A stretch of DNA of 64,000 nucleotides from a virus (IMGVR_UViG_3300005399_000003); one strand, 5' to 3'. Positions 4,325 to 49,046 are shown, numbered from the stretch's first letter. The notes: generated from the letters alone by a model not told the origin. A program made the numbers and translations.

Positions 4325-6730
4325 ATGAAGGATACAATCTCCCCCGCCGCAGAAGTGCGGGAATTTGCCCCCGGTATTGGTCGCGCTGTCGCTGATCGCA
4401 CTGTGGCCCGTAAGGTTATCAAACAGCACGATGGCGTGCAGTTTCACAACATCACCCTGCCGCGTGACGACAAGCAGTCATTGGACGCTCAAGTTGCCAA
4501 ACACGCCAAGAACGAAGGGCTGATCTACTCTGGCTATCACGTCAAGCACGGCAATGATCGCAACGTGGTGCTGACCCTCTATGTGACGGGCGAGGAACGT
4601 CGGGAGAACTGGGTTGAAGTGGCAGATCGGGTCGCACTGGGCAATGCATCCCTGAACCCCGCAGACTTTGATAGTGAGGTCGTGATCTTCGCAGATCACC
4701 TACGCCGCGCCACCACCCTCATGTCGGGCCGTCATCTACAGCACGGCGATGAGAACCAGAAGAACCGCCCCTTTGAGGTCTTTACGAACTGTTCGACCGC
4801 ACCTCTGACTTCCCTTTCCTTCTATCTGCTGCTCAACGGCTCGGGCGTTGGGCGAGACTACTCCGATGAAATGATGGTCGCTGACTGGGCCGACATGCCC
4901 ATCGTGGTTCCGGTGATCAGCGAAACCCACGCAGACGTCGCCTCTGGGCTCGCTGCGGGTTACTCGACTATCGCAGACGTTGAACACCTCTACGCTGATC
5001 GCAAGATCACCATCTTCAATGTCCCTGACAGCCGCGAAGGCTGGGCTGAGGGCGTCGCTAAGATGGAAGAGATGGCATATGAAAAGCGCCGCGATGAAGT
5101 GCTGGTGCTGGACTTCTCCGAAGTGCGCCCGAATGGCGCCCCGATCGGCGGCATGCAGAGCCGCCCAGCATCTGGCCCCGGCCCATTGATGTCCGCAATC
5201 GTCAAGATCGCAGCCCTGCGCGACGCAGGCATGCCTGCTTGGCGCTCCAATCTCTATGCTGACCACTACTGCGCCGCGGTTGTTCTGGTGGGCGGTGCGC
5301 GTCGTGCGGCTCGCATGTCGACAAAGTGGTGGATGGACCCCGGCGTTCTGGATTTCGTCAAGGTCAAGATGGGCGGGCGCTTCTTGTGGTCGTCAAACAA
5401 CTCCGTCACCGTCGATGCGCAGTTCTGGACATGCGTGAAAAACGCCACCACCGACAACGAGCATCCCGTCACAGAGCTGGACGAATGGGCGCTCAAGGTC
5501 TTCAACGCTGTCACCGAAGCCTCGTACAAAGACGGCACAGGCGAGCCCGGCTTCATCAATGTGGACATGTTCGACGCCAAAATCCCCAAGGGCGGTGTTG
5601 GTGAGATCAACTTCGACCACGTTCTCGATACGACCCGCTTGAACTTCACCTCTGGCTTTAAGGAGATGATGGTCGATGTGGTGGAGCGCGGTGCAAAGTC
5701 CAGCTTCCCGATGATCACCAACCCCTGCGGGGAAATTCAGCTGGTCAAATGGGGCGGCTACTGCGTGATTGCAGACGTTGTGCCTTATCACGCTGACAAT
5801 CTCGATGACGCCGAGCAGGCGTTCCGGGCCACAACCCGCGCTCTCATTCGTACCAACTTGATGAACCCGCTGTTTAAGGGCGAGGTCAAACGCACCAATC
5901 GCATCGGGGTTGGCATCACGGGTTTGCACGAGTTTGCCCTCAAGTTCTTCGGCTACGGTTGGCACGATCTTGTGGACGAGAAGAAGTCGCAGGACTTCTG
6001 GGATACAATTGCCCGCTTTGCGCGTGCCGTGAAGATCGAGGCGACGATCTATGCGGGCAAGCTAGGGGTTGCATCTCCACACACAGACACCACGATGAAG
6101 CCTGCGGGCACAACCTCCAAGCTCTTCGGGCTGACCGAGGGTGCGCATTTGCCTGCGATGCTGACCTACCTGCGGTGGGTGCAGTTCCGCTCTGACGATC
6201 CGTTGGTCGAAGAGTACAAGGCCAAGGGCTACCCGACCAAGACCCTGCGTAGCTATGATGGCACAACTGTCGTGGGCTTCCCAACTGCCCCGGCGATTGT
6301 CGAGCTGGCCCGCGAATTGGGTTTGGAAGATAAGCTGGTCACGGCCGCCGAAGCCACGCCCGAGGAGCAGTTTGAGTATCTGCGCTTGCTGGAGAAATAC
6401 TGGATCGCGGGTAACATGAAGGACGATACTGGCAATCAGATCTCCTACACGCTCAAGTATGACCCCGAGCAGGTCGACTTCGATGCTTACCGCGCCTCGA
6501 TGTTGAAGAACATGCCGACGGTGAAATGCGTCTCGGTGATGCCCCAGGTCGATACCACGGCCTATGAGTATCAGCCCGAGGAGCCTGTCACCAAAGAGGT
6601 CTTCGAGCGCATCGCGGCAGAGATTGCCAATGCCCAGACGGCACAGGTGATGGAAGAGAGTATCGACTACGAGCATCTTGCCTGCGATGCGGGCGGCTGC
6701 CCGATCTCCTTCGACAAAGACGGCATCTAA
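4325..6730 (+). CDS. nrdJ: ribonucleotide reductase, class II (adenosylcobalamin-dependent, NrdJ-like)
   Basis: NPCGEIQL active-site motif in an 801-aa single chain. No small subunit is encoded nearby. Confidence 0.8.
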   Translation: MKDTISPAAEVREFAPGIGRAVADRTVARKVIKQHDGVQFHNITLPRDDKQSLDAQVAKHAKNEGLIYSGYHVKHGNDRNVVLTLYVTGEERRENWVEVADRVALGNASLNPADFDSEVVIFADHLRRATTLMSGRHLQHGDENQKNRPFEVFTNCSTAPLTSLSFYLLLNGSGVGRDYSDEMMVADWADMPIVVPVISETHADVASGLAAGYSTIADVEHLYADRKITIFNVPDSREGWAEGVAKMEEMAYEKRRDEVLVLDFSEVRPNGAPIGGMQSRPASGPGPLMSAIVKIAALRDAGMPAWRSNLYADHYCAAVVLVGGARRAARMSTKWWMDPGVLDFVKVKMGGRFLWSSNNSVTVDAQFWTCVKNATTDNEHPVTELDEWALKVFNAVTEASYKDGTGEPGFINVDMFDAKIPKGGVGEINFDHVLDTTRLNFTSGFKEMMVDVVERGAKSSFPMITNPCGEIQLVKWGGYCVIADVVPYHADNLDDAEQAFRATTRALIRTNLMNPLFKGEVKRTNRIGVGITGLHEFALKFFGYGWHDLVDEKKSQDFWDTIARFARAVKIEATIYAGKLGVASPHTDTTMKPAGTTSKLFGLTEGAHLPAMLTYLRWVQFRSDDPLVEEYKAKGYPTKTLRSYDGTTVVGFPTAPAIVELARELGLEDKLVTAAEATPEEQFEYLRLLEKYWIAGNMKDDTGNQISYTLKYDPEQVDFDAYRASMLKNMPTVKCVSVMPQVDTTAYEYQPEEPVTKEVFERIAAEIANAQTAQVMEESIDYEHLACDAGGCPISFDKDGI

Positions 6731-7730: not shown

Positions 7731-8723
7731 ATGGGCCAAGTATTCACACACCCTGGACAGCCGCAGATGCAGGCAGAGATTATTCTCGCCTCGCAATCGA
7801 CGGTGCCTGGGGCAAAGCCGATCTACACGATCCGTGGGCGCTACCCGCGCCCCATTCATGGCGAGGTCATGACGCATCGCAAGTTCGGCCGCAACGCGCG
7901 GTCATCGCGGGCTGTGCCTGTCATGACGATGCTGCTTGAAACCACGTCGATCCCGTTCGTCCCGTGGCACTGGCACAAGAACCAGCCGGGGATGCAGGGC
8001 AAGGTGCCGCTGACTCCCGAAGAAGAGAAGCAAGCTAAGATTGCTTGGCTGCGGGCGCGTGATGCGGCAGTCGAAGCTGTAGAGGTGCTCTTCGACAAGG
8101 ACGGGCTGAACATTCACAAGCAGAACCCCAATCGCCTGCTTGAGCCCTTCGCGTGGATCGACGTGCTGATCACGACGACCGACATCGAGAACTTCCTGTG
8201 GCTGCGCGACCACGAAGACGCTGAGCCCCACCTTCGGGACTGGGCGCGCTTGGTGAAGCAAGCGGTCGATGCTGCTGAGATTCAAACGCTGGAGCCCGGG
8301 CAGTGGCACTTGCCGTATATCACAGCCGACGACATCGCCCATGCCCGCATGAGCTTTGGCGCAACCCTCTGCGGCTCGCATGGCGATGCGATCAACGAGT
8401 TCCTGCGCAAGCTCAGCGCGGCCCGTTGTGCGCGTATCTCCTACAAGCCCTTCGACGGCGATGCGTCCTACGAAAAAGAGCTTGCCCGTTACGATCTGCT
8501 GGTCAGTTCAGATCGGGTTCATGCCTCCCCGACAGAGCATCAGGCGACACCTGATGTGAAGCACTTCTTCAAGGACTGGGAATATGAGCGCGCGAAGGAG
8601 ATGGGCATCGACCTTGATCGTCTTGCTTGGGACAAGCCCCATCTGCACGGCAATCTCGACGGCTACATTCAGGCCCGCAAGCTGATCCCCAACGAGTGCT
8701 GGCACGAAGGGATCGAGGCATGA
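7731..8723 (+). CDS. putative ThyX-like flavin-dependent thymidylate synthase (divergent)
   Basis: THRKFGRNARSSR resembles the ThyX RHR-X7-S motif. The gene sits in a nucleotide-metabolism neighbourhood. Confidence 0.4.
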   Translation: MGQVFTHPGQPQMQAEIILASQSTVPGAKPIYTIRGRYPRPIHGEVMTHRKFGRNARSSRAVPVMTMLLETTSIPFVPWHWHKNQPGMQGKVPLTPEEEKQAKIAWLRARDAAVEAVEVLFDKDGLNIHKQNPNRLLEPFAWIDVLITTTDIENFLWLRDHEDAEPHLRDWARLVKQAVDAAEIQTLEPGQWHLPYITADDIAHARMSFGATLCGSHGDAINEFLRKLSAARCARISYKPFDGDASYEKELARYDLLVSSDRVHASPTEHQATPDVKHFFKDWEYERAKEMGIDLDRLAWDKPHLHGNLDGYIQARKLIPNECWHEGIEA

Positions 8724-16058: not shown

Positions 16059-16147
16059 CAGGCCCGATCATAAGATTGCCCGTCCAGATATGGGCGGGCA
16101 TCAAGTCATTACTGACAGAGCAATGACGCAAACGAAAGGGAAACCCC

Positions 16148-21849: not shown

Positions 21850-22209
21850 ATGACACAGGAACGCACGATCAAGGTCAGCATGAACGCAATTATGGCGGAA
21901 GCTGTTTGCGCATATGTGGACGAGCAAATGAGCCATGACCCTGATGAAGCTCGCATGAAGGCCCTGCAAGACGCCGACGACAAGGCTATGGAGGTTCTGC
22001 GCGGGACCAATTTGATGCACAGCGGTACTGTTCTGTACGAGGATGATCGCGTCATCCTCTTTGAGCACCCGATCCACGGGGATGAAGCGCCGATCATGGG
22101 CTACCTCAAAGAAGAGGAGTTCTTCATGGAGAACACGATGTTCTATGAAGTCGATGATCGCCACTGCATCGTGTCCATGCTCGAAGCCCAAGCTGGGGCG
22201 CCTTATTAA
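21850..22209 (+). CDS. hypothetical protein
   Basis: GAAAGGGAAAGCCCATG initiation motif. Confidence 0.5.
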   Translation: MTQERTIKVSMNAIMAEAVCAYVDEQMSHDPDEARMKALQDADDKAMEVLRGTNLMHSGTVLYEDDRVILFEHPIHGDEAPIMGYLKEEEFFMENTMFYEVDDRHCIVSMLEAQAGAPY

Positions 22210-28585: not shown

Positions 28586-28930
28586 ATGATCTTAGGTGAC
28601 AACATCGCTCAAAACATGGGCCCGGGTTGGTCGTCAGAGGACGGGCAATACTACGACTTCGAAGGCAAAGGCTGGGTGAAGCTCTACGAGGACAATGATT
28701 ACTGGATGATTGATCTCATTCAGGTCAATCCCGAGCATCGTCGCAAGGGCGTTGGCACCCGCATGCTCAAGGACTTGCTAAGTCTCGACAGCAAACCCGT
28801 TCATCTTCAGGCAGACCCAACTGATCCAAGCATCCCAACGCATGTGCTCGTGGCTTGGTACGAGAAACACGGCTTTGTCGTCACTCCCGGCACTGATCAC
28901 TGGATGATCTACACACCCAAGGGATACTAA
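28586..28930 (+). CDS. GNAT-family N-acetyltransferase
   Basis: IQVNPEHRRKGVGTRMLKDLL matches GNAT motif A. Confidence 0.55.
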   Translation: MILGDNIAQNMGPGWSSEDGQYYDFEGKGWVKLYEDNDYWMIDLIQVNPEHRRKGVGTRMLKDLLSLDSKPVHLQADPTDPSIPTHVLVAWYEKHGFVVTPGTDHWMIYTPKGY

Positions 28931-28933
28931 GGC

Positions 28934-29041
28934 ATGATCAGGCATCAACTACGCAACATGGTCATCGTAATCCTGGCCATGATCATCGGCATCACTGTAG
29001 GCATAGCGCTCGTAAAGACACTGCCTGGCACTCTACTCTAG
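28934..29041 (+). CDS. small hydrophobic peptide (35 aa)
   Basis: MIRHQLRNMVIVILAMIIGITVGIALV is a single TM helix. Confidence 0.25.
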   Translation: MIRHQLRNMVIVILAMIIGITVGIALVKTLPGTLL

Positions 29042-29044
29042 CTA

Positions 29045-29390
29045 GAAATCCCCTCACCACAACAGACCCCAAAAATAGCCCCTCAGAAGCCCCAAAACGC
29101 AATCAGCACCCCCAACCCCCGACAGACCCTCCAACGCCCCACAGACCCCCTCACAGCGCAGCGCACGCAACGCCTAACCCCAACAAAGCCCGCGCAACCC
29201 GCAATCAATCCCAACCCCAGAGGAAAACTACCCGCAAGCCCATCAGACCCCGCAGCGCCAAGAACCCTCGGAGCAACGATCAAACCAATCCTGAAACGTA
29301 AGACAAACAGACCTCGAACTTTCGACCCGACAAGAGCACGACCAAGAGCACAGCCACCCTCGGGAACGCCAGTAGGGAAAGGAAAGGGAA
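29045..29390 (+). repeat. C-rich/G-poor low-complexity tract (CCCCAA/ACCC repeats), non-coding
   Basis: About 340 bp with almost no G on the + strand. No ORF with a start codon is present. Confidence 0.6.
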
Positions 29391-29575
29391 AAGCCTATAC
29401 ACACAAGGCTATGATGCTCTCGGATAGGGAAAGGTCAGGGGTGAGACTATAGAGGGATAGAAGGGAGGACATACGGGAAAGGAGACTGATCTGCCTATAG
29501 GGGAAAGGAGGGGTTTTTGCCTATAGACACATGTACGGTAGGGAAAGGAGAGCTTTGTGCCTAGAAACTCTCCCT
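29380..29575 (+). repeat. direct repeats GGGAAAGG...(T)GCCTATAG, 4-5 copies
   Basis: Units at about 29387, 29440, 29500 and 29545. Related units occur at 30700, 31620 and 32300. Confidence 0.55.
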
Positions 29576-29687
29576 ATAAGACGCCGATAAGTGGGCCTGC
29601 GCCTAACCAAACCACCAATCCCAGCCTTGCCACCGCCTGAACTATCCGCGCCACTTCCAAGCCATCGCCAGTCCATCTCGACCATGG

Positions 29688-29750
29688 CCCCACCATGGAC
29701 GTGCCATGGACGTGCCATGGCGTTGGCGTGTTGCCGTGACCATGGCGACA
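29688..29750 (+). promoter_or_regulatory. array of 5 CCATGG palindromes upstream of AGTCA-N4-TGACT element
   Basis: ACCATGGCC, ACCATGGAC, GCCATGGAC, GCCATGGCG and ACCATGGCG within about 65 bp. Confidence 0.5.
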
Positions 29751-29818
29751 AGTCATCGTTGACTGTCCAGCTCTGCGGGGTGATTGTGGGTTTGTTCAAG
29801 CATGAAAGGGAAAGCTCA

Positions 29819-30199
29819 ATGGCAAAGAACACCCCCAAGACGCCCATCACATTCAGTGTGGCAGACATCAGAGCGGTCGTAGACACAGGGATGGCGTATC
29901 GCACAGCGAAGGGCGACCCTGAATTGGCACTTGCCCGCATCAATGGTCTTCAGCGTGAGATCAATGAGATCGTTGGTACATACGAGAACAACGATGGCAG
30001 CGTGAAGCGCAATCATGGACTGTCGCGGGATCAGTTGTTGGAGCGCATTGCGCGTAGCTGCTTTCTGTTGGCAGAGCGCGTCTACATCATGCAGCACTCC
30101 CAAGGTAAGGGCTGTGACATGATTGATCTGCGGCGGGTCGTGAATGACAACTATGACAAGGCAATCAAGCGTGTGGGCTTGGCCCCACAACCCGCTTGA
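29819..30199 (+). CDS. hypothetical protein
   Basis: CATGAAAGGGAAAGCTCAATG leader. Confidence 0.5.
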   Translation: MAKNTPKTPITFSVADIRAVVDTGMAYRTAKGDPELALARINGLQREINEIVGTYENNDGSVKRNHGLSRDQLLERIARSCFLLAERVYIMQHSQGKGCDMIDLRRVVNDNYDKAIKRVGLAPQPA

Positions 30200-30257
30200 T
30201 CTGCCATAACTGCACCCCCACAAAGGGGGTGCAACAACATGAAAGGGATAACAGCTT

Positions 30258-30620
30258 ATGAACGAAGCAGACAAGATCATCCGCAACGCCCACGCAGCAA
30301 GCATTCAGTCCGCAATCGACGACAGCAATGCGCGGGTTATACTGCACAAACAAGAGAGTGCGCCTTTGCATGACAAGCTCCGGGCGCTGTTCACCAACCC
30401 TGATCACGCCGTTGAATATGACGCTGTGTGCAGCGCCTTTGGGCATGAGCCCACGCTGTCTGAGCTGGGTTTCCATCTGTCTTCTATGACGCTGACGCCT
30501 GAAGAAGCCATGCGCGTTGATACGCTGATCGCGGGAATGGCGAGCGATGTCTTCCGTTTCAACTGCTCTGAGGGCGGGGATCAGCCTGAAGACGTGATCG
30601 ACGCCCTATACGGGTTCTGA
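30258..30620 (+). CDS. hypothetical protein
   Basis: Preceded by the hairpin GCACCCCC-ACAAA-GGGGGTGC, then CAAC and GAAAGGGA. Confidence 0.5.
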   Translation: MNEADKIIRNAHAASIQSAIDDSNARVILHKQESAPLHDKLRALFTNPDHAVEYDAVCSAFGHEPTLSELGFHLSSMTLTPEEAMRVDTLIAGMASDVFRFNCSEGGDQPEDVIDALYGF

Positions 30621-30661
30621 CCTAGAACACTGAGAGGGGTTCCTGCTCCCCTCTCAGAACT

Positions 30662-30700
30662 CCCGACCCGAGGTACTTCCCCTTTCAGCCTCGGGTCGGT
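30662..30700 (+). terminator. hairpin terminator-like element
   Basis: CCGACCCGAGG...CCTCGGGTCGG, an 11-bp stem. Confidence 0.4.
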
Positions 30701-30939
30701 CGAGAAAGGCGAGGGAAAGGCGGGGTTTGGGCCTAGATATAGCCATGGAGCTGCCATGGTAATAATCTTGCGCAGTTTTGGCTTGGAGCTTAATCTCACC
30801 CCGGAGGCGATTGATCTCGCCTTCAATGAAATCAAAGGGTTGCTAGGCGAAAGATTATTGCGCGTTGGCAGCTGTTTTGGGGTGATCTGCCGCTATTGAG
30901 GGGTGATAAGGGCTGTAGAGCAACAGAAAGGGATTACCC

Positions 30940-31185
30940 ATGGCATACAAGTTCAAAAGCGAGTGTCTCAAGCTTCAGGCAGAAAGCGTCATCATGGCAG
31001 CTTTTGAGGGCGACAACGAACACGCCATCATCGACACGGGCAGCAACGGGTCGCCCTCCTATCACGTTGTCACCTTCAATCACGGGCGCGAGGGAATGTG
31101 CCTCAACGCAGAAGAGCACAGCAACATGCCTGATGCGATCAAAGCCCTCTCGGGGTTCATGGTGACTGAATACGCGGGAGTTTAA
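30940..31185 (+). CDS. hypothetical protein
   Basis: GAAAGGGATTACCCATGG leader. Confidence 0.5.
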   Translation: MAYKFKSECLKLQAESVIMAAFEGDNEHAIIDTGSNGSPSYHVVTFNHGREGMCLNAEEHSNMPDAIKALSGFMVTEYAGV

Positions 31186-31258
31186 GGTGCCCTTCACCCT
31201 TTGACCCACCTAGTCTGCACCCCCACAACGGGGGTGTAGCAACTGAAAGGGATTACCC

Positions 31259-31606
31259 ATGCAATATGCAGTTATCACAGACGCACAGATCGACTTCCTT
31301 AAAGCGAACCCCGTGCCCAACGTCGATCAGTTTCACACACCCTACGCCTACGTCATCGAAAATCAGCGCGACGATTGCACCTTGAGCAAAGAGCAAGTCA
31401 TCGAACTGACGCAGATGATGCACCTAATGCCCCATGTCGCCCTTGTTGACTACAGTGAGAAACAGGGGCGCGAAACCCGCTATGCTGCCTATTACGACGG
31501 GTCGCTGTCGTTCCTAGAGATCGGGGAAGAAGTCGATGGGCGCTGCACTGTGACTGCCTTGAGCGACAGGGATCACGCCTATGTGCTCGGGTATTTCGGG
31601 CGATAA
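31259..31606 (+). CDS. hypothetical protein
   Basis: Hairpin GCACCCCC-ACAAC-GGGGGTG, then GAAAGGGATTACCCATG. Confidence 0.5.
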   Translation: MQYAVITDAQIDFLKANPVPNVDQFHTPYAYVIENQRDDCTLSKEQVIELTQMMHLMPHVALVDYSEKQGRETRYAAYYDGSLSFLEIGEEVDGRCTVTALSDRDHAYVLGYFGR

Positions 31607-31612
31607 ACCCCG

Positions 31613-31645
31613 AAAGCCCGCCCAAGAGAAAGGCGGGCTTTTTGC
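31613..31645 (+). terminator. rho-independent terminator
   Basis: AAAGCCCGCC-loop-GGCGGGCTTTTT. Confidence 0.6.
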
Positions 31646-31654
31646 CTAGAAGGG

Positions 31655-31795
31655 GTCTTCCATGGCACGGCCATGGCAAAGCTACCATGGCGTTTGCCTA
31701 AACGCGGCCATGGCAGGTCCATGGAGATCAGGCCATGGTCTTCTCCTAAACGCGGCCATGGCGGGTCCATGGCGTTTCGGCCATGGCGCCCCGGG
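31655..31795 (+). promoter_or_regulatory. array of 9 CCATGG palindromes incl. ~40-bp tandem repeat
   Basis: Nine G/TCCATGGC sites within about 135 bp. CTAAACGCGGCCATGGC(A/G)GGTCCATGG is duplicated. Confidence 0.55.
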
Positions 31796-31856
31796 ACTGT
31801 TGCGCTGCCTAACCCTGCGCGGGACATTGGGGCATCAACAGAGAAAGGGATTACCC

Positions 31857-32189
31857 ATGAAGATCGAACTGGAAGTATGTGACTGCTCGGGCGAAGCGAT
31901 TGTTTGCAAGGTGACGCCCACAGACGCGCAGATCGAGAAGATCGAGAAGGCGATAAGCGAGAACCCCTCAAAGATGTTTGAATGGCAAGGCGAGCTGCCC
32001 AATGTCGCTGAGACGACTGTGGAGGGCGTTGACTGCATGTCATTCATGGACGAGGGCATTCTGATCATGTCGATCGCTGGACCCTCGTATATGGACTGTC
32101 TGACGATCTGGGAGGACAAAGAGATGCAAGAGCGCGCAATCGCTGAGACATGGATGCTCTTTGTCCCGCATTTGAAGATCTTCCTCTAA
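31857..32189 (+). CDS. hypothetical protein
   Basis: GAAAGGGATTACCCATG leader. The portion of the tracked ORF upstream of this ATG runs through the CCATGG repeats and is probably non-coding. Confidence 0.5.
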   Translation: MKIELEVCDCSGEAIVCKVTPTDAQIEKIEKAISENPSKMFEWQGELPNVAETTVEGVDCMSFMDEGILIMSIAGPSYMDCLTIWEDKEMQERAIAETWMLFVPHLKIFL

Positions 32190-32335
32190 AGGGAAAGGCG
32201 AGCCCCGCGTCCATATTAGGGAAAGGCTAGCCCCGTGGCGGGCTCTAGGAAAGGCTGCGGGAAAGGCTAGCCCCGTGGCGAGGCTTAGGAAAGGCTCGGA
32301 GAAAGGCGAGCGCTTTGCCTAGGAACGGCGCGGAA
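32190..32335 (+). repeat. direct repeats GGGAAAGGCTAGCCCCGTGGCG(G/A)GC(T)CTAGG x2 plus GGAAAGGC variants
   Basis: Two near-identical units of about 30 bp, each containing an internal hairpin. Confidence 0.55.
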
Positions 32336-32423
32336 AAGGAGAGGAAAGGCAGCAAAAAATGCCGCGGCAAGGCGCGGCAAAGCCCCTGCGGGGCTTGGAG
32401 GAGGCTAGGCGCCCCCTTGATCG

Positions 32424-32450
32424 ACTGTCGCCCGAATGTCACAGTGACAT
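32424..32450. promoter_or_regulatory. perfect 27-bp palindrome GCCCGAATGTCAC-A-GTGACATTCGGGC
   Basis: 13-bp arms with no mismatches; operator-like. Confidence 0.5.
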
Positions 32451-32593
32451 TCGGGCAACAGGGCGTCAATATCGGGTAGTAACGCTAGTTTGCGATTCTA
32501 GCCCCAAAAGCGTTTTCTGCGCTGCATCTGCGAAGATTACTGCGATTATGCTGCAAAGCAAAATAGCGATGAAACGGGTGATAGCTTGCATGA

Positions 32594-32803
32594 TTACGCC
32601 CCCAATTCGCGATACACCCATGCCCGTTGAACGGGCGGGATTGCGTCGAGATATGCAAGCGCGTCAGCGTCATCTTCATGCAAGCTCAGCATTGTCTCAA
32701 TCCCTGACAGGGGCAGGGGCAAGACGTGATCAAACACGCGCACATCATAGCTCTCGGGGCGTTTGCTGCGCGGGGCGCGGGGCAGGGTAACTACGTTCGA
32801 CAT
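32594..32803 (-). CDS. hypothetical small protein
   Basis: On the minus strand it is preceded by GAAAGGGATTTACCCAATG, the same leader used by the + strand cassette genes. Confidence 0.45.
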   Translation of the reverse strand: MSNVVTLPRAPRSKRPESYDVRVFDHVLPLPLSGIETMLSLHEDDADALAYLDAIPPVQRAWVYRELGA

Positions 32804-32854
32804 TGGGTAAATCCCTTTCAAGTGTTGCGGGCTGTTTCGCCCGTATCTCTTTCT

Positions 32855-33000
32855 AAGTCATCTTTGACTTGATTCGCAATATCCCTTTCCCATTAAATCG
32901 CCCCCTTTTCCCCTTTCCCCATATAAAGGGATTAAATCGCCCCCTTTTCATAAAAGCGCATTTTAGGGGTTGCGAATCAAGTCACCCCTGACTTATACAT
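32855..33000. promoter_or_regulatory. composite regulatory region: two AGTCA-N4-TGACT elements embedded in a 15-bp inverted repeat flanking 2x direct repeat ATTAAATCGCCCCCTTTTC
   Basis: The TTGACTTGATTCGCAA...TTGCGAATCAAGTCA arms enclose the direct repeats. Confidence 0.5.
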
Positions 33001-33058
33001 ATTTCACGGGCAACGAAGCGCCCCGCAAGAAAGCGCTTCACATGAAAGGGAAAGACCC

Positions 33059-33742
33059 ATGACAAACGTTTCTATCAAAGCAATGCGCGAAAATCTGACA
33101 GCTAACTTTGCAGCGCGTGAAGAGTTTGAAGCGAAAAAGGGCAAAGCTGCTAGCATCATGCCCCAGCTTGATCGTCATTTCGCGTATGACAATAAAGCGC
33201 AAGATTCCAAATGGGGTAACGATGTATTCAAAGCCCTGCGCGATGCGGGTGTCTCTAACTTTGACTTCATCACGCACAAGCTGCGCGAGTCTGATATGTT
33301 CAATATCAAGGGGCTTGCGAAAGTAGGGGCGCACATTGAAAGCATCGCGCGGGGCAAGCTCACCCAATTTGACAAGACGAATCAGAAGTATTGCGGGGCG
33401 ATTGTGCATGAGCTGATTCAGAATCGTGACAAGTTCGAGCGGGGCGAAATGCAAATCAAAACAGGGCAATTTGTACCCATGTTCGCCCGCGCAGCACGCA
33501 ACGACTCGCTTGCGACATATGATTTCGCAACATCGCTAATCAGCGTTCAACCCAGCACTGCTAGCACGCAAGCAAGCTCTAGCATGCGCGCCCTAGATGC
33601 AATGGGGGTAGTGAACGCATACGAAACAGGGACAGGGAAAGACAAGACATTGCATGTAAACTATGTGAAATGGGATCACCCCCTTGTCGCTTTGTTCGCT
33701 GAGCTTTACGGGCTAGACGTTCCCAAAACTGAGCAAGCTTAA
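33059..33742 (+). CDS. hypothetical protein (lower-GC, likely horizontally acquired moron)
   Basis: Local GC is about 48%, against roughly 60% for the window. The gene carries the same GAAAGGGAAAGACCCATG leader. Confidence 0.55.
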   Translation: MTNVSIKAMRENLTANFAAREEFEAKKGKAASIMPQLDRHFAYDNKAQDSKWGNDVFKALRDAGVSNFDFITHKLRESDMFNIKGLAKVGAHIESIARGKLTQFDKTNQKYCGAIVHELIQNRDKFERGEMQIKTGQFVPMFARAARNDSLATYDFATSLISVQPSTASTQASSSMRALDAMGVVNAYETGTGKDKTLHVNYVKWDHPLVALFAELYGLDVPKTEQA

Positions 33743-33744
33743 AC

Positions 33745-33832
33745 TGCCCCGCTAGCGCCCCTCTGAGGGGCGTTAGCATCCCCGCAAGGGGGTCGGGTAG
33801 GGAATGACATTAGCGCCCCTCAGAGGGGCTTA
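33745..33832. terminator. convergent-transcription terminator hairpins
   Basis: GCTAGCGCCCCTC-TGA-GAGGGGCGTTAGC and TTAGCGCCCCTCAGAGGGGCT, between + strand and - strand gene blocks. Confidence 0.45.
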
Positions 33833-34048
33833 TATTGGGCGAATCACACGCGGGCGTTGCAAGAAGCCCTAGATTCGCTGTCAAGCCCTATGGACCGTCA
33901 CCTTCCTCTTTGCGGCGGGTTTTTCGGCCGCTCCTTATACAGCCGCGGACGGGGTGCAGACCGCTCCTTATACAGCCGTCCAAGGGTCCGATTGTCCGCT
34001 GGTCAAGGGTCCGTGGGTCGATTGGTCGCTGGTCGCCAGCGTCTTCGA

Positions 34049-48096: not shown

Positions 48097-49046
48097 ACAT
48101 GAAAAACCGCCTTACCCAACCGACTGACCCTTACGATACACCTGCGTGGATGGCGTTCTACGCAGCGAACCCCGGCTTCCGCCGCTCTGTGGGCGCTGAG
48201 GGCGTCAATGACGACGATCCAGCCCCGGGCGCTGACGATGACCCCCAAGACCCGCCCAAGGGCGACGACAAGACGCCCCAAGACCCTCCCAAGGGCGACG
48301 ACGACCCGAAAGACCCGCCCAAGGGCGACGACAAAGACAAGAAGCCCTCGGACGAAGAGGCGCGTTTGCTGCAAGACCTGATGAAGCACAAGAAGGCCGC
48401 GCGTGAAGCGCAGGCCAAGCTGAAGGACTATGACGGCGTCGATGTCGAAGAATACAAGCGGCTCAAGCAGGCGTCGGCTGACGCGGCTCAGGCTGAGCTT
48501 GAGGCTAAGGGCCAGTTTGACGAAGTGAAGCGTCAGATGCGCGAGGCGCATGATCAAGAGATCACGACCATTCGCGCGGAGTCGGAAGAGAAAGACAAGA
48601 CCATCGCCGAGCTGAAGGCGCAGATCGAAGAGCTGACCGTCGGCTCCAGCTTCGGCTCGTCGAAGTTCCTCAAGGAAGAGACCCTGCTGCCGCCCTCGAA
48701 GGCGCGTCGTCTCTATGGTGAGCACTTCGAGATCGAAGACGGCAAGGTCGTGGCCTATGACAAGCCCAAGGGCGCTGCCAACCGCTCGCCGCTGGTTGAC
48801 GGTCGTGGCGACCCGCTGCCTTTCGAGGATGCGATTTCGAAGATCTTCAAGGCTGATCCCGACAGCAAGGAGATGCTGCGCAGCGCCCTGCGCCCCGGCT
48901 CCGACAGCGATCCGTCGAATGCCAAGTCCGACCCGGCCAAGGATCAAAAGCCGATGTCGCGGCAGGAGAAGATCGCCAGTGGCCTCTCCAGCCTCTTCGA
49001 GGGCGGCAATCAAGAGCCGTTCAGCGAGATGTTCAATACGAAGTGA
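48093..49046 (+). CDS. scaffolding protein (putative)
   Basis: PKGDD repeats and a coiled-coil K/E-rich region, directly upstream of the capsid gene. Confidence 0.5.
   Translation: MNMKNRLTQPTDPYDTPAWMAFYAANPGFRRSVGAEGVNDDDPAPGADDDPQDPPKGDDKTPQDPPKGDDDPKDPPKGDDKDKKPSDEEARLLQDLMKHKKAAREAQAKLKDYDGVDVEEYKRLKQASADAAQAELEAKGQFDEVKRQMREAHDQEITTIRAESEEKDKTIAELKAQIEELTVGSSFGSSKFLKEETLLPPSKARRLYGEHFEIEDGKVVAYDKPKGAANRSPLVDGRGDPLPFEDAISKIFKADPDSKEMLRSALRPGSDSDPSNAKSDPAKDQKPMSRQEKIASGLSSLFEGGNQEPFSEMFNTK

What the first reader, a model, noticed from the sequence alone, without database searches (positions are those of the whole stretch)
28930..33060. Hypervariable-looking cassette region: about 7 single small genes, each with own dyad/hairpin leader and terminator, interleaved with repeats
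Unlike the translationally coupled operons elsewhere (ATGA/TAATG overlaps), genes 29819-30199, 30258-30620, 30940-31185, 31259-31606, 31857-32189, 32594-32803(-) and 33059-33742 are each separated by 50-250 bp. Each spacer contains a terminator hairpin, palindrome arrays and the stereotyped GAAAGGGA-CCCATG leader. This architecture is typical of moron or accessory-gene loading zones. If there is an undescribed anti-defence or host-takeover gene set in this window it is most likely here. The products have no recognisable domains.
Basis: inference. Interest (0 to 1): 0.7.

Follow-up and report, generated by a model that had tools for sequence, protein, structure and literature searches.

The report
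Conserved control scaffold around swappable small phage genes
This stretch of a roughly 95 kb marine phage genome holds a set of small unknown genes that differ between related phages, set in a conserved framework of repeated DNA signals next to a conserved DNA-binding protein, so the conserved feature is probably the control system and not the genes.

Summary
The repeats are far beyond chance.

- **M box:** a 27-bp unit, TAGGGAAAGG-N10-GCCTAKA. It has 14 matches against 0.7 expected, all on the + strand. Nine lie in 29377-32321.
- **CCATGG:** 17 of 28 window copies fall in 2.1 kb, in pairs 11 bp apart.

The GAAAGGGA leader is only the phage's general ribosome-binding site. The AAGTCA-N4-TGACTT dyad is a genome-wide promoter or operator element.

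Six metagenomic relatives share one layout: M boxes, CCATGG arrays, small + strand genes, a small minus-strand gene, then a homolog of the 227-aa protein. Two cultured Rhizobium phages share the non-coding part and the homolog. The small genes are mosaic between relatives.

The 227-aa protein is predicted to carry a winged helix. In phage B1VFA the clustered hexamer is CCTAGG and the recognition helix differs.

My best reading, at moderate confidence, is a separately insulated, regulator-controlled expression platform for exchangeable ORFan genes. It resembles the T5 pre-early repeat regions and the T4 PeSL zones. An anti-defence role is untested. The neighbouring small-gene operons vary just as much.

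The parts
28934..29041 (+). 35-aa hydrophobic ORF, the last gene of the long upstream + strand operon
   Evidence: Called on independent contigs. Only a weak SecE-like transmembrane match.
29042..29360 (+). C/A-rich, G/T-poor non-coding tract (43% C, 34% A, 15% G, 7% T). It is unstructured as RNA. Metagenome contigs repeatedly end or start here.
   Evidence: Composition. Fold z-score -0.4. Contig ends fall at 28997-29150 and contig starts at 29131-29208. A similar C/A-rich tract precedes the motif in Rhizobium phages.
29374..29566 (+). Five tandem M boxes (TAGGGAAAGG-N10-GCCTAKA), two of them tiled head to tail at 26 bp
   Evidence: + strand only. Equivalent clusters open the zone in L016, L020, L021 and L023.
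29567..29681 (+). C-rich non-coding leader that is better conserved than the gene after it
   Evidence: About 92% identical to L017 over roughly 80 nt, against 70% for the whole L017 match.
29682..29745 (.). First CCATGG array: 5 copies spaced 11, 11, 11 and 25 bp
29750..29765 (.). AAGTCATCGTTGACTG dyad overlapping a sigma-70-like TTGACT-N17-GATTGT promoter for the 126-aa gene
   Evidence: The dyad is kept in L017. The promoter reading is inference.
29819..30199 (+). 126-aa ORF (family F3); no known domain
   Evidence: 70% homolog P0004. Leader GAAAGGGAAAGCTCAATG.
30210..30233 (+). GC-rich 9-bp hairpin with no U run, just upstream of the next ribosome-binding site
   Evidence: z -2.8. Repeated at 31215-31238 (D17). 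L017 has a hairpin at the same place with a different sequence, but its fold is not better than shuffles (z -0.5).
30258..30620 (+). 120-aa ORF (family F4)
   Evidence: Homologs P0017, P0035, P0040 and P0041. L021 1147-1479 is 39% identical.
30630..30700 (+). Two strong hairpins after the 120-aa gene. The second has a loop CUUCCCCUUUC complementary to the M-box 5' half.
   Evidence: A similar loop occurs in L021.
30712..30759 (+). M box followed directly by two CCATGG 11 bp apart
   Evidence: 79% identical to L016 6668-6714.
30756..30899 (+). 47-aa ORF, doubtful as a gene
   Evidence: Called by gene finders, but it has no homolog beyond its own cluster.
30940..31185 (+). 81-aa ORF (family F2)
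   Evidence: Homologs P0014, P0023, P0024 and P0029. Present in L023 and L024.
31215..31238 (+). Second copy of the GC-rich hairpin, upstream of the 115-aa gene
31259..31606 (+). 115-aa ORF
   Evidence: Homologs P0021, P0026 and P0027.
31614..31651 (+). Intrinsic terminator (GCCCGCC/GGCGGGC plus a U run) whose 3' half and tail form an M box, giving a composite terminator and M element
31660..31786 (.). Largest CCATGG array: 9 copies in three 48-bp units spaced 11, 14 and 23 bp
   Evidence: 86-88% identical to the L016 array at 8607-8641.
31857..32189 (+). 110-aa ORF (family F1), the most widely kept cassette. It is always the last cassette before the minus-strand gene.
   Evidence: L021 52%, L023 38%.
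32190..32324 (+). Closing cluster of 5-6 degenerate M units (GGAAAGGC repeats), the best-conserved non-coding piece across relatives
   Evidence: 83-89% identical to L016, L020 and L023, and 74% over 152 nt to L021.
32349..32461 (.). Hairpin zone between the convergent genes. It includes a minus-strand intrinsic terminator (32360-32379) and an 18-bp-arm palindrome (32425-32461).
   Evidence: z -4.4.
32594..32803 (-). 69-aa protein, conserved partner gene transcribed divergently from the 227-aa gene
   Evidence: A small minus-strand gene sits at the same position in L015, L016, L019, L020, L021 and L023. The model shows a disordered basic N-terminus, a beta hairpin and three helices, pLDDT 76.
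32854..32995 (.). Divergent promoter region. Two inverted copies of TTGCGAATCAAGTCA-N4-TGACTTA each carry a GANTC site. Two 19-bp direct repeats lie between them.
   Evidence: The box is conserved in L015 and L016.
33059..33742 (+). 227-aa anchor protein: N-terminal helical domain plus C-terminal winged helix, with conserved helix STAxTQxSSSxRAL. It lies in a GANTC island.
   Evidence: (pLDDT 87).
33757..33829 (.). Long hairpin closing the + strand block, between convergent genes
   Evidence: z -5.5.

Best explanation
The region is a lineage-conserved, separately insulated expression platform for exchangeable small genes.

**Layout (shown).** Three units are laid out in series: 126+120 aa, (47)+81+115 aa, and 110 aa. 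Each unit opens with hairpin terminators or, for the first unit, the C/A-rich tract. Then come one or more M boxes, a CCATGG array with 10-11 bp phasing, a ribosome-binding leader and the gene or genes. A sigma-70-like promoter can be read between the array and the leader in all three units, weakly in the third. Clusters of M units bracket the whole array at both ends.

**Mechanism (inferred).** The phased hexamers are operator or upstream binding sites for the adjacent 227-aa winged-helix protein, bound as phased dimers or oligomers. The whole cassette set is then switched on or off together. The M boxes insulate or start each unit, possibly through a second factor such as the 69-aa protein. 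The cassette genes are cargo that is swapped by recombination at the shared leader, promoter and repeat sequences.

The function of the cargo is not known. Early host-directed functions are a guess.
For: - **Non-random motifs.** The elements are strand-specific and zone-restricted.
- **Same order in relatives.** L016, L019, L020, L021, L023 and L024 carry the same elements in the same order, with anchor identity of 30-44%.
- **CCATGG dominates each zone.** It is the top palindromic hexamer in the zone of W, L016, L020, L021, L023 and L024, and nearly all copies of each locus lie in the zone: 14/14, 12/13, 10/11, 14/14 and 11/11.
- **Cultured Rhizobium phage RHph_N1_15.** Its gp010 is a family member (hhalign 98%, E 2.6e-13). 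It sits directly after a 1.2-kb gap with a C/A-rich tract, GCCTATAGAG and four CCATGG. GCCTATAGAG occurs once in the 115.5 kb of the genome scanned. Thirteen of 22 genomic CCATGG lie within 5.8 kb around the gene.
- **Specificity switch in B1VFA.** All 9 CCTAGG of a 14.5-kb locus lie around the homolog, and the recognition helix is altered: TQK..T against TQA..R.
- **Mosaic cargo.**
- **A homology breakpoint at the leader.** The match between the window and L017 ends at the hairpin and GAAAGGGA leader.
Against: - There are no binding or transcription data. Assigning the hexamers to the 227-aa protein rests on co-occurrence and one co-variation event.
- RHph_N1_15 also has a changed helix (R to N) yet keeps CCATGG.
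- A 6-bp palindrome is an unusual site for a winged-helix dimer.
- There is no CCATGG in the protein's own divergent promoter region in the marine phages.
- M units tiled at 26 bp look more like a binding-site array than promoters, so their role is open.
- The arrays are in frame with the downstream ORFs in two cases.
- The fold of the 69-aa protein could not be compared with known folds.
Confidence: 0.5

Rival explanations
1. The region is the replication-origin or partition control region of a phage-plasmid. The 227-aa protein is an initiator or centromere-binding protein. M boxes and hexamer arrays are iterons or centromere repeats, and the small genes merely sit among them.
For: - M units are directly repeated 26-bp units in two clusters.
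- Hexamers with 10-11 bp phasing resemble ParR- or omega-type arrays (from my own knowledge).
- The phage backbone belongs to the SSU5 / RHEph10 / nickie group. RHEph10 is homologous to the phage-plasmid pLM21S1, and nickie is distantly related to the Acinetobacter AB phage-plasmid group (PMC7969092).
- The anchor module is a GANTC island in a GANTC-depleted genome. This recalls methylation-timed origins (interpretation from my own knowledge).
- Direct repeats that differ between relatives lie in the divergent intergenic region.
Against: - There is no Rep_3 or any other Pfam or NCBIfam match.
- No DnaA box was found, and the region is not the AT-richest part of the window.
- RHph_N1_15 has separate RepC-like and ParA/ParG genes elsewhere.
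- The arrays sit consistently between terminators and the next gene, which fits a tie to transcription units.
Confidence: 0.2
2. This is a plain moron or accessory-gene loading zone. Independently acquired genes each brought their own promoter and terminator. There is no dedicated regulator, and the repeats are only shared promoter and terminator sequences.
For: - Cassette content is mosaic.
- The products are ORFans with no known domain.
- Hairpins and individual ribosome-binding sites are present.
- A homing-endonuclease cassette (NUMOD4) sits in the L020 zone.
Against: - Independent acquisitions would not share zone-specific, strand-specific motifs that persist across relatives with 22-44% anchor identity, including phages with no cassettes between the motifs and the anchor gene.
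- CCATGG is depleted elsewhere in RHph_N1_15: 9 copies in about 110 kb.
- Neighbouring operons are just as variable without this architecture.
Confidence: 0.15
3. The region is a genome-end, packaging or DNA-entry control region. Examples would be a cos or terminal-repeat boundary followed by first-entering early genes, or an injection-stop-like repeat region as in T5.
For: - Ten of the contigs retrieved from other samples end at 28997-29150 or start at 29131-29208, although their sequence is identical.
- T5-like phages have conserved untranslated repeat regions among poorly conserved pre-early ORFs (bioRxiv 10.1101/866236).
- Relatives encode a T5 A1-like protein, and the window encodes a dNMP phosphatase of the T5 dmp type.
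Against: - Two long contigs and the window read straight through the site.
- A second recurrent break lies near 6150-6243, so breaks need not mark ends (my arithmetic).
- Terminase genes are 15 kb away.
- There are no DnaA boxes.
- The motifs recur internally, not only at one site.
- The B1VFA record is linear, with the homologous zone at 40 kb.
Confidence: 0.1

Closest known systems
PeSL elements and hyperplastic regions of T4-type phages (PMC2839356, PMC4122927)
   Same: - Small composite terminator/promoter repeats flank variable ORFan genes.
- The shared repeats are proposed as recombination joints.
- Here there is a composite terminator plus M box at 31614-31651, mosaic cassettes, and one homology breakpoint at a leader.
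   Different: - The phage group is different (a siphovirus of the SSU5/RHEph10 type).
- The motif sequences are different.
- There are additional phased hexamer arrays and a dedicated conserved DNA-binding anchor gene.
- No circle or indel evidence between close relatives is available here.
Untranslated repeat regions of the T5 first-step-transfer (pre-early) region (bioRxiv 10.1101/866236)
   Same: - Non-coding repeat regions are conserved in order across relatives, while the small ORFs between them are poorly conserved.
- The phage backbone shares T5-type genes: a dmp-like phosphatase, and an A1-like gene in relatives.
   Different: - There are no DnaA boxes.
- No location in a terminal repeat has been shown.
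- The repeat sequences differ.
- The anchor protein has no T5 counterpart that I found.
Morons of lambdoid phages (from my own knowledge: Hendrix and colleagues)
   Same: Single genes have their own expression signals, and they are present or absent between relatives.
   Different: Here the signals are a shared, zone-specific conserved code with a linked regulator. They are not independent promoter/terminator pairs. Expression from a prophage is unknown.
Arrays of phased short repeats bound by small regulators or winged-helix proteins: pho boxes for PhoB/OmpR, omega heptads of pSM19035, ParR/parC 11-bp repeats (from my own knowledge)
   Same: - Short sites repeat at about one helical turn.
- They lie upstream of several promoters in one element.
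   Different: - The site here is a palindromic hexamer.
- The protein has no receiver domain and no ribbon-helix-helix signature.
- Binding is untested.
Iteron-type plasmid initiators (RepA of pPS10, RepE of F)
   Same: - Similar size (227 aa).
- Direct repeats occur in clusters.
- There is a divergent promoter with inverted repeats.
   Different: - No Rep_3 sequence signature.
- A single winged helix.
- No DnaA box or AT-rich unwinding element next to the repeats.

Membership tests
Moron (lambdoid-type accessory gene) | The gene is flanked by its own promoter and terminator. | tested here: inconclusive
   Hairpins or terminators were found after the 120-, 115- and 110-aa genes, and sigma-70-like promoters can be read upstream. 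The genes appear grouped in three units rather than standing singly, and there are no transcript data.
Moron (lambdoid-type accessory gene) | The gene is present in some relatives and absent in others, between otherwise adjacent genes. | tested here: met
   The family map across W, L016, L020, L021, L023 and L024 is mosaic.
Moron (lambdoid-type accessory gene) | The gene is expressed from the repressed prophage. | not testable with these tools
   The lifestyle of this phage is unknown. No integrase, Rep or ParA gene was seen in the window.
PeSL / hyperplastic region | A repeated composite promoter and stem-loop motif flanks variable ORFs. | tested here: met
   M boxes lie next to hairpins at 30630-30738 and 31614-31651. 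The same arrangement is seen in L016 and L021.
PeSL / hyperplastic region | Homology breakpoints between relatives fall at the repeats. | tested here: inconclusive
   There is one case. Homology between W and L017 ends at the hairpin and GAAAGGGA leader. Other relatives are too divergent at the DNA level.
PeSL / hyperplastic region | The motif contains a T4-type early sigma-70 promoter. | tested here: not met
   The M box has no TTGACA-N17-TATAAT. The consensus scan found 1 promoter-like site in 8 kb against 4 expected.
Iteron replicon (Rep_3-type initiator plus iterons) | Rep_3 or a related sequence family signature. | tested here: not met
   No Pfam, NCBIfam or PDB sequence match.
Iteron replicon (Rep_3-type initiator plus iterons) | Two tandem winged-helix domains. 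| tested here: not met
Iteron replicon (Rep_3-type initiator plus iterons) | Iterons with DnaA box and an AT-rich element next to the rep gene. | tested here: not met
   There is no DnaA box in the window. The 32.8-33.0 kb stretch is only the 4th to 8th lowest-GC stretch. Only two 19-bp direct repeats are present.
Integron cassette array | An integrase gene with attI next to the array, and attC sites after each cassette. | tested here: not met
   There is no recombinase among the neighbouring genes. The spacer repeats are direct, not attC-like imperfect inverted repeats.
T5-type pre-early region with injection stop signal | Conserved untranslated repeat regions among variable small ORFs. | tested here: met
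T5-type pre-early region with injection stop signal | Located in a terminal repeat, with paired DnaA boxes. | tested here: not met
   There are no DnaA boxes. Termini cannot be determined from assemblies. Recurrent contig ends at 29.0-29.2 kb are only suggestive.
Known anti-defence proteins | Sequence similarity to a described anti-defence family. | not tested
   No anti-defence library was available. Pfam, PHROGs, NCBIfam and PADLOC (a library of defence systems, not anti-defence) gave nothing.

The most novel reading that the evidence does not exclude
The M boxes, the CC(AT/TA)GG arrays and the 227-aa winged-helix family together form an undescribed, self-contained gene-docking and control platform in a widespread group of roughly 95-120 kb alphaproteobacterial phages or phage-plasmids. 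New ORFs are captured by recombination at the shared signals and come at once under one master regulator. The regulator's own module is timed by CcrM (GANTC) methylation of the host cell cycle. In effect it would be an integron-like cassette system without an integrase.
Probability: 0.15. Interest if true: 0.75.

Novelty: new variant of a known kind. Interest (0 to 1): 0.55.

Why it matters
- It gives a first functional lead for a protein family that is annotated only as hypothetical in cultured Rhizobium phages (RHEph10, the RHph series, B1VFA).
- It gives a concrete, testable DNA code. That code is CCATGG or CCTAGG arrays and the M box.
- Cultured relatives exist, so binding, transcript mapping and cassette screens can be done directly.
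- If the platform model holds, it explains how this phage group keeps a turnover of ORFan genes under common control. It also points to where to look for host-directed or anti-defence genes.

Tried and rejected
- **Concatenated word-index search.** A concatenated query of the small proteins in the word-index search returned nothing. The same trick worked in the exhaustive search.
- **No close relatives in several collections.** The phage collection gave nothing by DNA or by the 227-aa protein. IMG/VR gave nothing. Isolate genomes gave nothing.
- **Rfam.** Only sub-threshold chance hits.
- **Foldseek against PDB.** Nothing significant for the 227-aa model.
- **AFDB.** The library was not available.
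- **Phage single-subunit RNA polymerase promoter reading of GCCTATAG.** Rejected. The complete genome of RHph_N1_15 has no such polymerase annotated, and the motif occurs once in the 115.5 kb of its genome that I scanned.
- **Sigma-54 reading of the GG-N10-GC spacing.** The spacing fits, but the conserved T before GG is missing and no enhancer-binding ATPase is nearby. I left it as an idea.
- **CsrA sponge or ribosome sponge reading of the GGA-rich M cluster.** Considered and not pursued.
- **Inverted repeat 32854/32970.** This turned out to be two copies of the general promoter/dyad element facing opposite ways.
- **L023 versus L024 cassette indel.** This turned out to be a gene-calling difference.

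Full report
**Context**

The window belongs to a siphovirus-type phage. It has a tape measure gene, an SU10-like capsid, portal and TerL genes, and a large nucleotide-metabolism block with SbcC, class II RNR, dUTPase and RtcB.

TerL and a UvsW-like helicase are 44-55% identical to those of Pseudomonas phage nickie, Rhizobium phages RHEph10 and the RHph series, Stenotrophomonas ANB28 and SSU5-type elements. RHEph10 is homologous to the phage-plasmid pLM21S1, and nickie is distantly related to the Acinetobacter AB phage-plasmid group (PMC7969092). The complete genome of RHph_N1_15 is colinear with the window.

Thirteen of 14 contigs from other marine metagenomes are identical to the window where they overlap. 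One (L011) has two base differences upstream of this region, and L003 differs only by a scaffold gap. One is a 94.7-kb scaffold, probably the whole circular map.

**Checking the observation**

Spacers are 58-319 nt between cassette genes. There are 777 nt before the first gene, 404 nt at the convergent junction and 255 nt at the divergent junction.

Hairpins are real. A 9-bp GC-rich stem occurs twice, at 30210 and 31215. Two hairpins follow the 120-aa gene. A classical terminator sits at 31614-31642. A hairpin zone lies at 32349-32461, and a long hairpin at 33757-33829.

- The GAAAGGGA-N-ATG leader is the phage's ribosome-binding context. It also occurs at 16134, 21836, 22273, 25170 and 26936.
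- The dyad AAGTCA-N4-TGACTT occurs at about 19 sites across the window against 0.08 expected. Most of the + strand sites lie about 30-75 nt before a start codon.
- The large inverted repeat at 32854/32970 is simply two such elements facing apart. They act as the promoters of the 69-aa and 227-aa genes.

**What is special to this zone**

*M box.* The motif is TAGGGAAAGG-N10-GCCTA(T/G)A. There are 14 matches at up to 1 mismatch against 0.74 expected, and every match is on the + strand. Nine lie in 29377-32321. The five matches elsewhere are at 16134, 25170, 26330, 53798 and 63268; four of them are ribosome-binding sites followed by a start codon. The zone copies are arranged as follows.
- Five copies are in tandem at 29374-29566.
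- Single copies lie at 30712 and 31625.
- A degenerate cluster lies at 32190-32324.
- Units can tile head to tail at 26 bp.

*CCATGG.* Seventeen of 28 copies lie in 2.1 kb (P about 1e-18). They form three arrays, each just downstream of an M box, with 11-bp pairs.

*Order.* The recurring order is terminator or C/A-rich tract, M box, CCATGG array, ribosome-binding leader, then gene(s). A sigma-70-like promoter can be read between the array and the leader in all three units, weakly in the third. This divides the zone into three units: 126+120 aa, (47)+81+115 aa, and 110 aa. The unit boundaries are inferred from the sequence and are not shown by transcripts.

**Relatives**

An exhaustive HMMER search with the concatenated products found a few homolog clusters for every ORF except the 47-aa one. 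It found 17 clusters for the 227-aa protein.

I fetched contigs for several of these. L016, L019, L020, L021, L023 and L024 all show one layout. Small + strand genes are separated by spacers. A 65-92 aa minus-strand gene follows. Then comes the 227-aa homolog. In L019 and L021 the minus-strand block leading to the helicase and ParB-like genes follows.

M boxes occur only on the + strand and only in this zone. CCATGG is the top palindromic hexamer of each zone, with 10/11 to 14/14 of the locus copies inside it. Pair spacing is 10-11 bp. DNA-level similarity between the window and these distant relatives is confined to these elements, the anchor promoter and the recognition-helix codons.

Gene content is mosaic:

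| Locus | Cassette families, in order |
|---|---|
| Window | F3, F4, unassigned, F2, unassigned, F1 |
| L021 | unassigned, F4, unassigned, F1 |
| L023 / L024 | F10, F11, F2, F1 |
| L016 and L020 | all different |

- The first L023 cassette (F10) has its window homolog outside the zone, at 21859-22158. That gene is preceded by the same dyad and leader.
- The window and L017 are homologous through the leader, the 126-aa gene and the following hairpin and ribosome-binding site. They then diverge completely.
- The upstream coupled small-gene operon and the minus-strand small genes beyond 33742 are just as unshared. Backbone genes such as the helicase reach 63-83%. Variability is therefore not peculiar to this zone.

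**The anchor protein**

The 227-aa model has pLDDT 87 and pTM 0.85. It has a helical N-terminal half and a C-terminal winged helix. The family's most conserved stretch, STAxTQxSSSxRAL, is the recognition helix.

- Foldseek against PDB gives nothing significant.
- BFVD gives two uncharacterised phage proteins.
- Profile comparison shows that RHph_N1_15 gp010 is a member (98%, E 2.6e-13).
- Among about 50,000 phage records the family occurs only in Rhizobium phages.

In RHph_N1_15 the gene follows a 1.2-kb non-coding gap. The gap holds repeated TGTTGACA boxes, a C/A-rich tract, GCCTATAGAG and four CCATGG. GCCTATAGAG occurs once in the 115.5 kb scanned. Thirteen of the genome's 22 CCATGG lie within 5.8 kb around the gene.

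In B1VFA the gap has the same plan, but the clustered hexamer is CCTAGG. All 9 copies in 14.5 kb lie around the homolog. Its helix reads NTASTQKSSTMTAL instead of STASTQASSSMRAL. This is one event, and RHph_N1_15 also carries a helix change without a site change. I therefore treat it as suggestive only.

**The 69-aa partner**

A small minus-strand gene is conserved in position, with a weak shared C-terminal motif. Its model has a disordered basic N-terminus, a beta hairpin and three helices, pLDDT 76. I could not search this fold.

**Interpretation**

The best reading is a conserved expression platform. Phased hexamers serve as binding sites for the winged-helix anchor protein. M boxes insulate or start each unit. 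The cassettes are exchangeable cargo. I give this a confidence of 0.5.

- *Shown:* the anatomy, the statistics, conservation across relatives, mosaic cargo, and the predicted winged helix.
- *Inferred:* who binds what, the direction of regulation, and the cargo function.

The rivals are as follows.
- A plain moron zone (0.15). The conserved zone-specific code counts against it.
- A genome-end or DNA-entry control region (0.1). Recurrent contig ends at 29.0-29.2 kb and the T5 analogy favour it. Read-through contigs, a second break site and the internal recurrence of the motifs count against it.

**Comparison with known systems**

The nearest concepts are the T4-type PeSL / hyperplastic regions (PMC2839356, PMC4122927) and the conserved untranslated repeat regions of the T5 pre-early region (bioRxiv 10.1101/866236). 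This case differs in three ways. It has its own motif code, it adds phased hexamer arrays, and it has a dedicated conserved DNA-binding gene. It fails the tests for integrons and for Rep_3 iteron replicons. I rate it a new variant of a known kind.

Noticed in passing
window 28997-29208: Ten contigs from other metagenomes end at 28997-29150 or start at 29131-29208, inside the C/A-rich tract, although their sequence is identical to the window. This could be a physical genome end, a coverage gap, or a strain-level branch point.
   Followed up: partly
whole window; island at 32494-33872: GANTC, the CcrM site, occurs 58 times against about 238 expected. There is none between 27411 and 32494, but 11 lie in the 1.4 kb of the 69-aa/227-aa module (P about 4e-8). 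The same island appears in L015, L016, L019 and L020. Both divergent promoters carry TGATTCG.
   Followed up: partly
about 19 sites, for example window 1195, 4260, 12707, 16103, 21784, 22222, 24274, 25112, 26878, 36132, 50154, 53742, 54336: The 16-bp dyad AAGTCA-N4-TGACTT has 27 strand hits against 0.08 expected. Most of the + strand sites lie about 30-75 nt upstream of a start codon. It is probably the phage's general promoter or operator element, and it is also present in L016, L017, L020 and L021.
   Followed up: partly
whole window: GATC is over-represented, with 561 copies against about 238 expected from base composition.
   Followed up: no
window 29591-30199 and 31662-32189: Two CCATGG arrays are in frame with the downstream ORFs, with no stop codon. 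The second would encode 16-aa tandem repeats (MAGPWRSGHGLLLNAA). One contig's gene call uses the long 175-aa form.
   Followed up: partly
window 30673-30687; L021 about 1562-1574: A hairpin loop CUUCCCCUUUC lies just upstream of an M box and is complementary to its GGGAAAGG half and to the ribosome-binding leader. This could allow a pseudoknot or a kissing interaction.
   Followed up: no
window about 6150-6243 (inside the RNR gene 4325-6730): A second recurrent assembly break. The 94.7-kb scaffold starts at window 6243, and a 73-kb contig ends at the equivalent of about 6150 if the map is a 94.7-kb circle.
   Followed up: no
window 48234-48334: A 30-33 nt tandem repeat (3 copies, 84% matches) lies in the ORF after the portal gene. 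It encodes a proline/aspartate-rich repeat.
   Followed up: no
L021 8339-10882: The helicase ortholog is 83% identical to the window's but is 847 aa long and carries intein / homing-endonuclease domains that are absent from the window copy.
   Followed up: no
L020 808-1278: One cassette in a relative's zone is a NUMOD4 homing-endonuclease-type gene. Mobile genes therefore do land in this zone.
   Followed up: no
L015 about 150-260: The divergent intergenic region of one relative carries about eight tandem 12-bp repeats (GACCCAGATCCC). The window has two 19-bp repeats there instead, so the repeats are relative-specific and iteron-like.
   Followed up: no
L016 (contig Ga0189291_100040, 235 kb): One relative's zone lies at the end of a 235-kb contig. 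That is far longer than the roughly 95-120 kb phages of this group, so it may be a larger element, a misassembly or an integrated copy.
   Followed up: no
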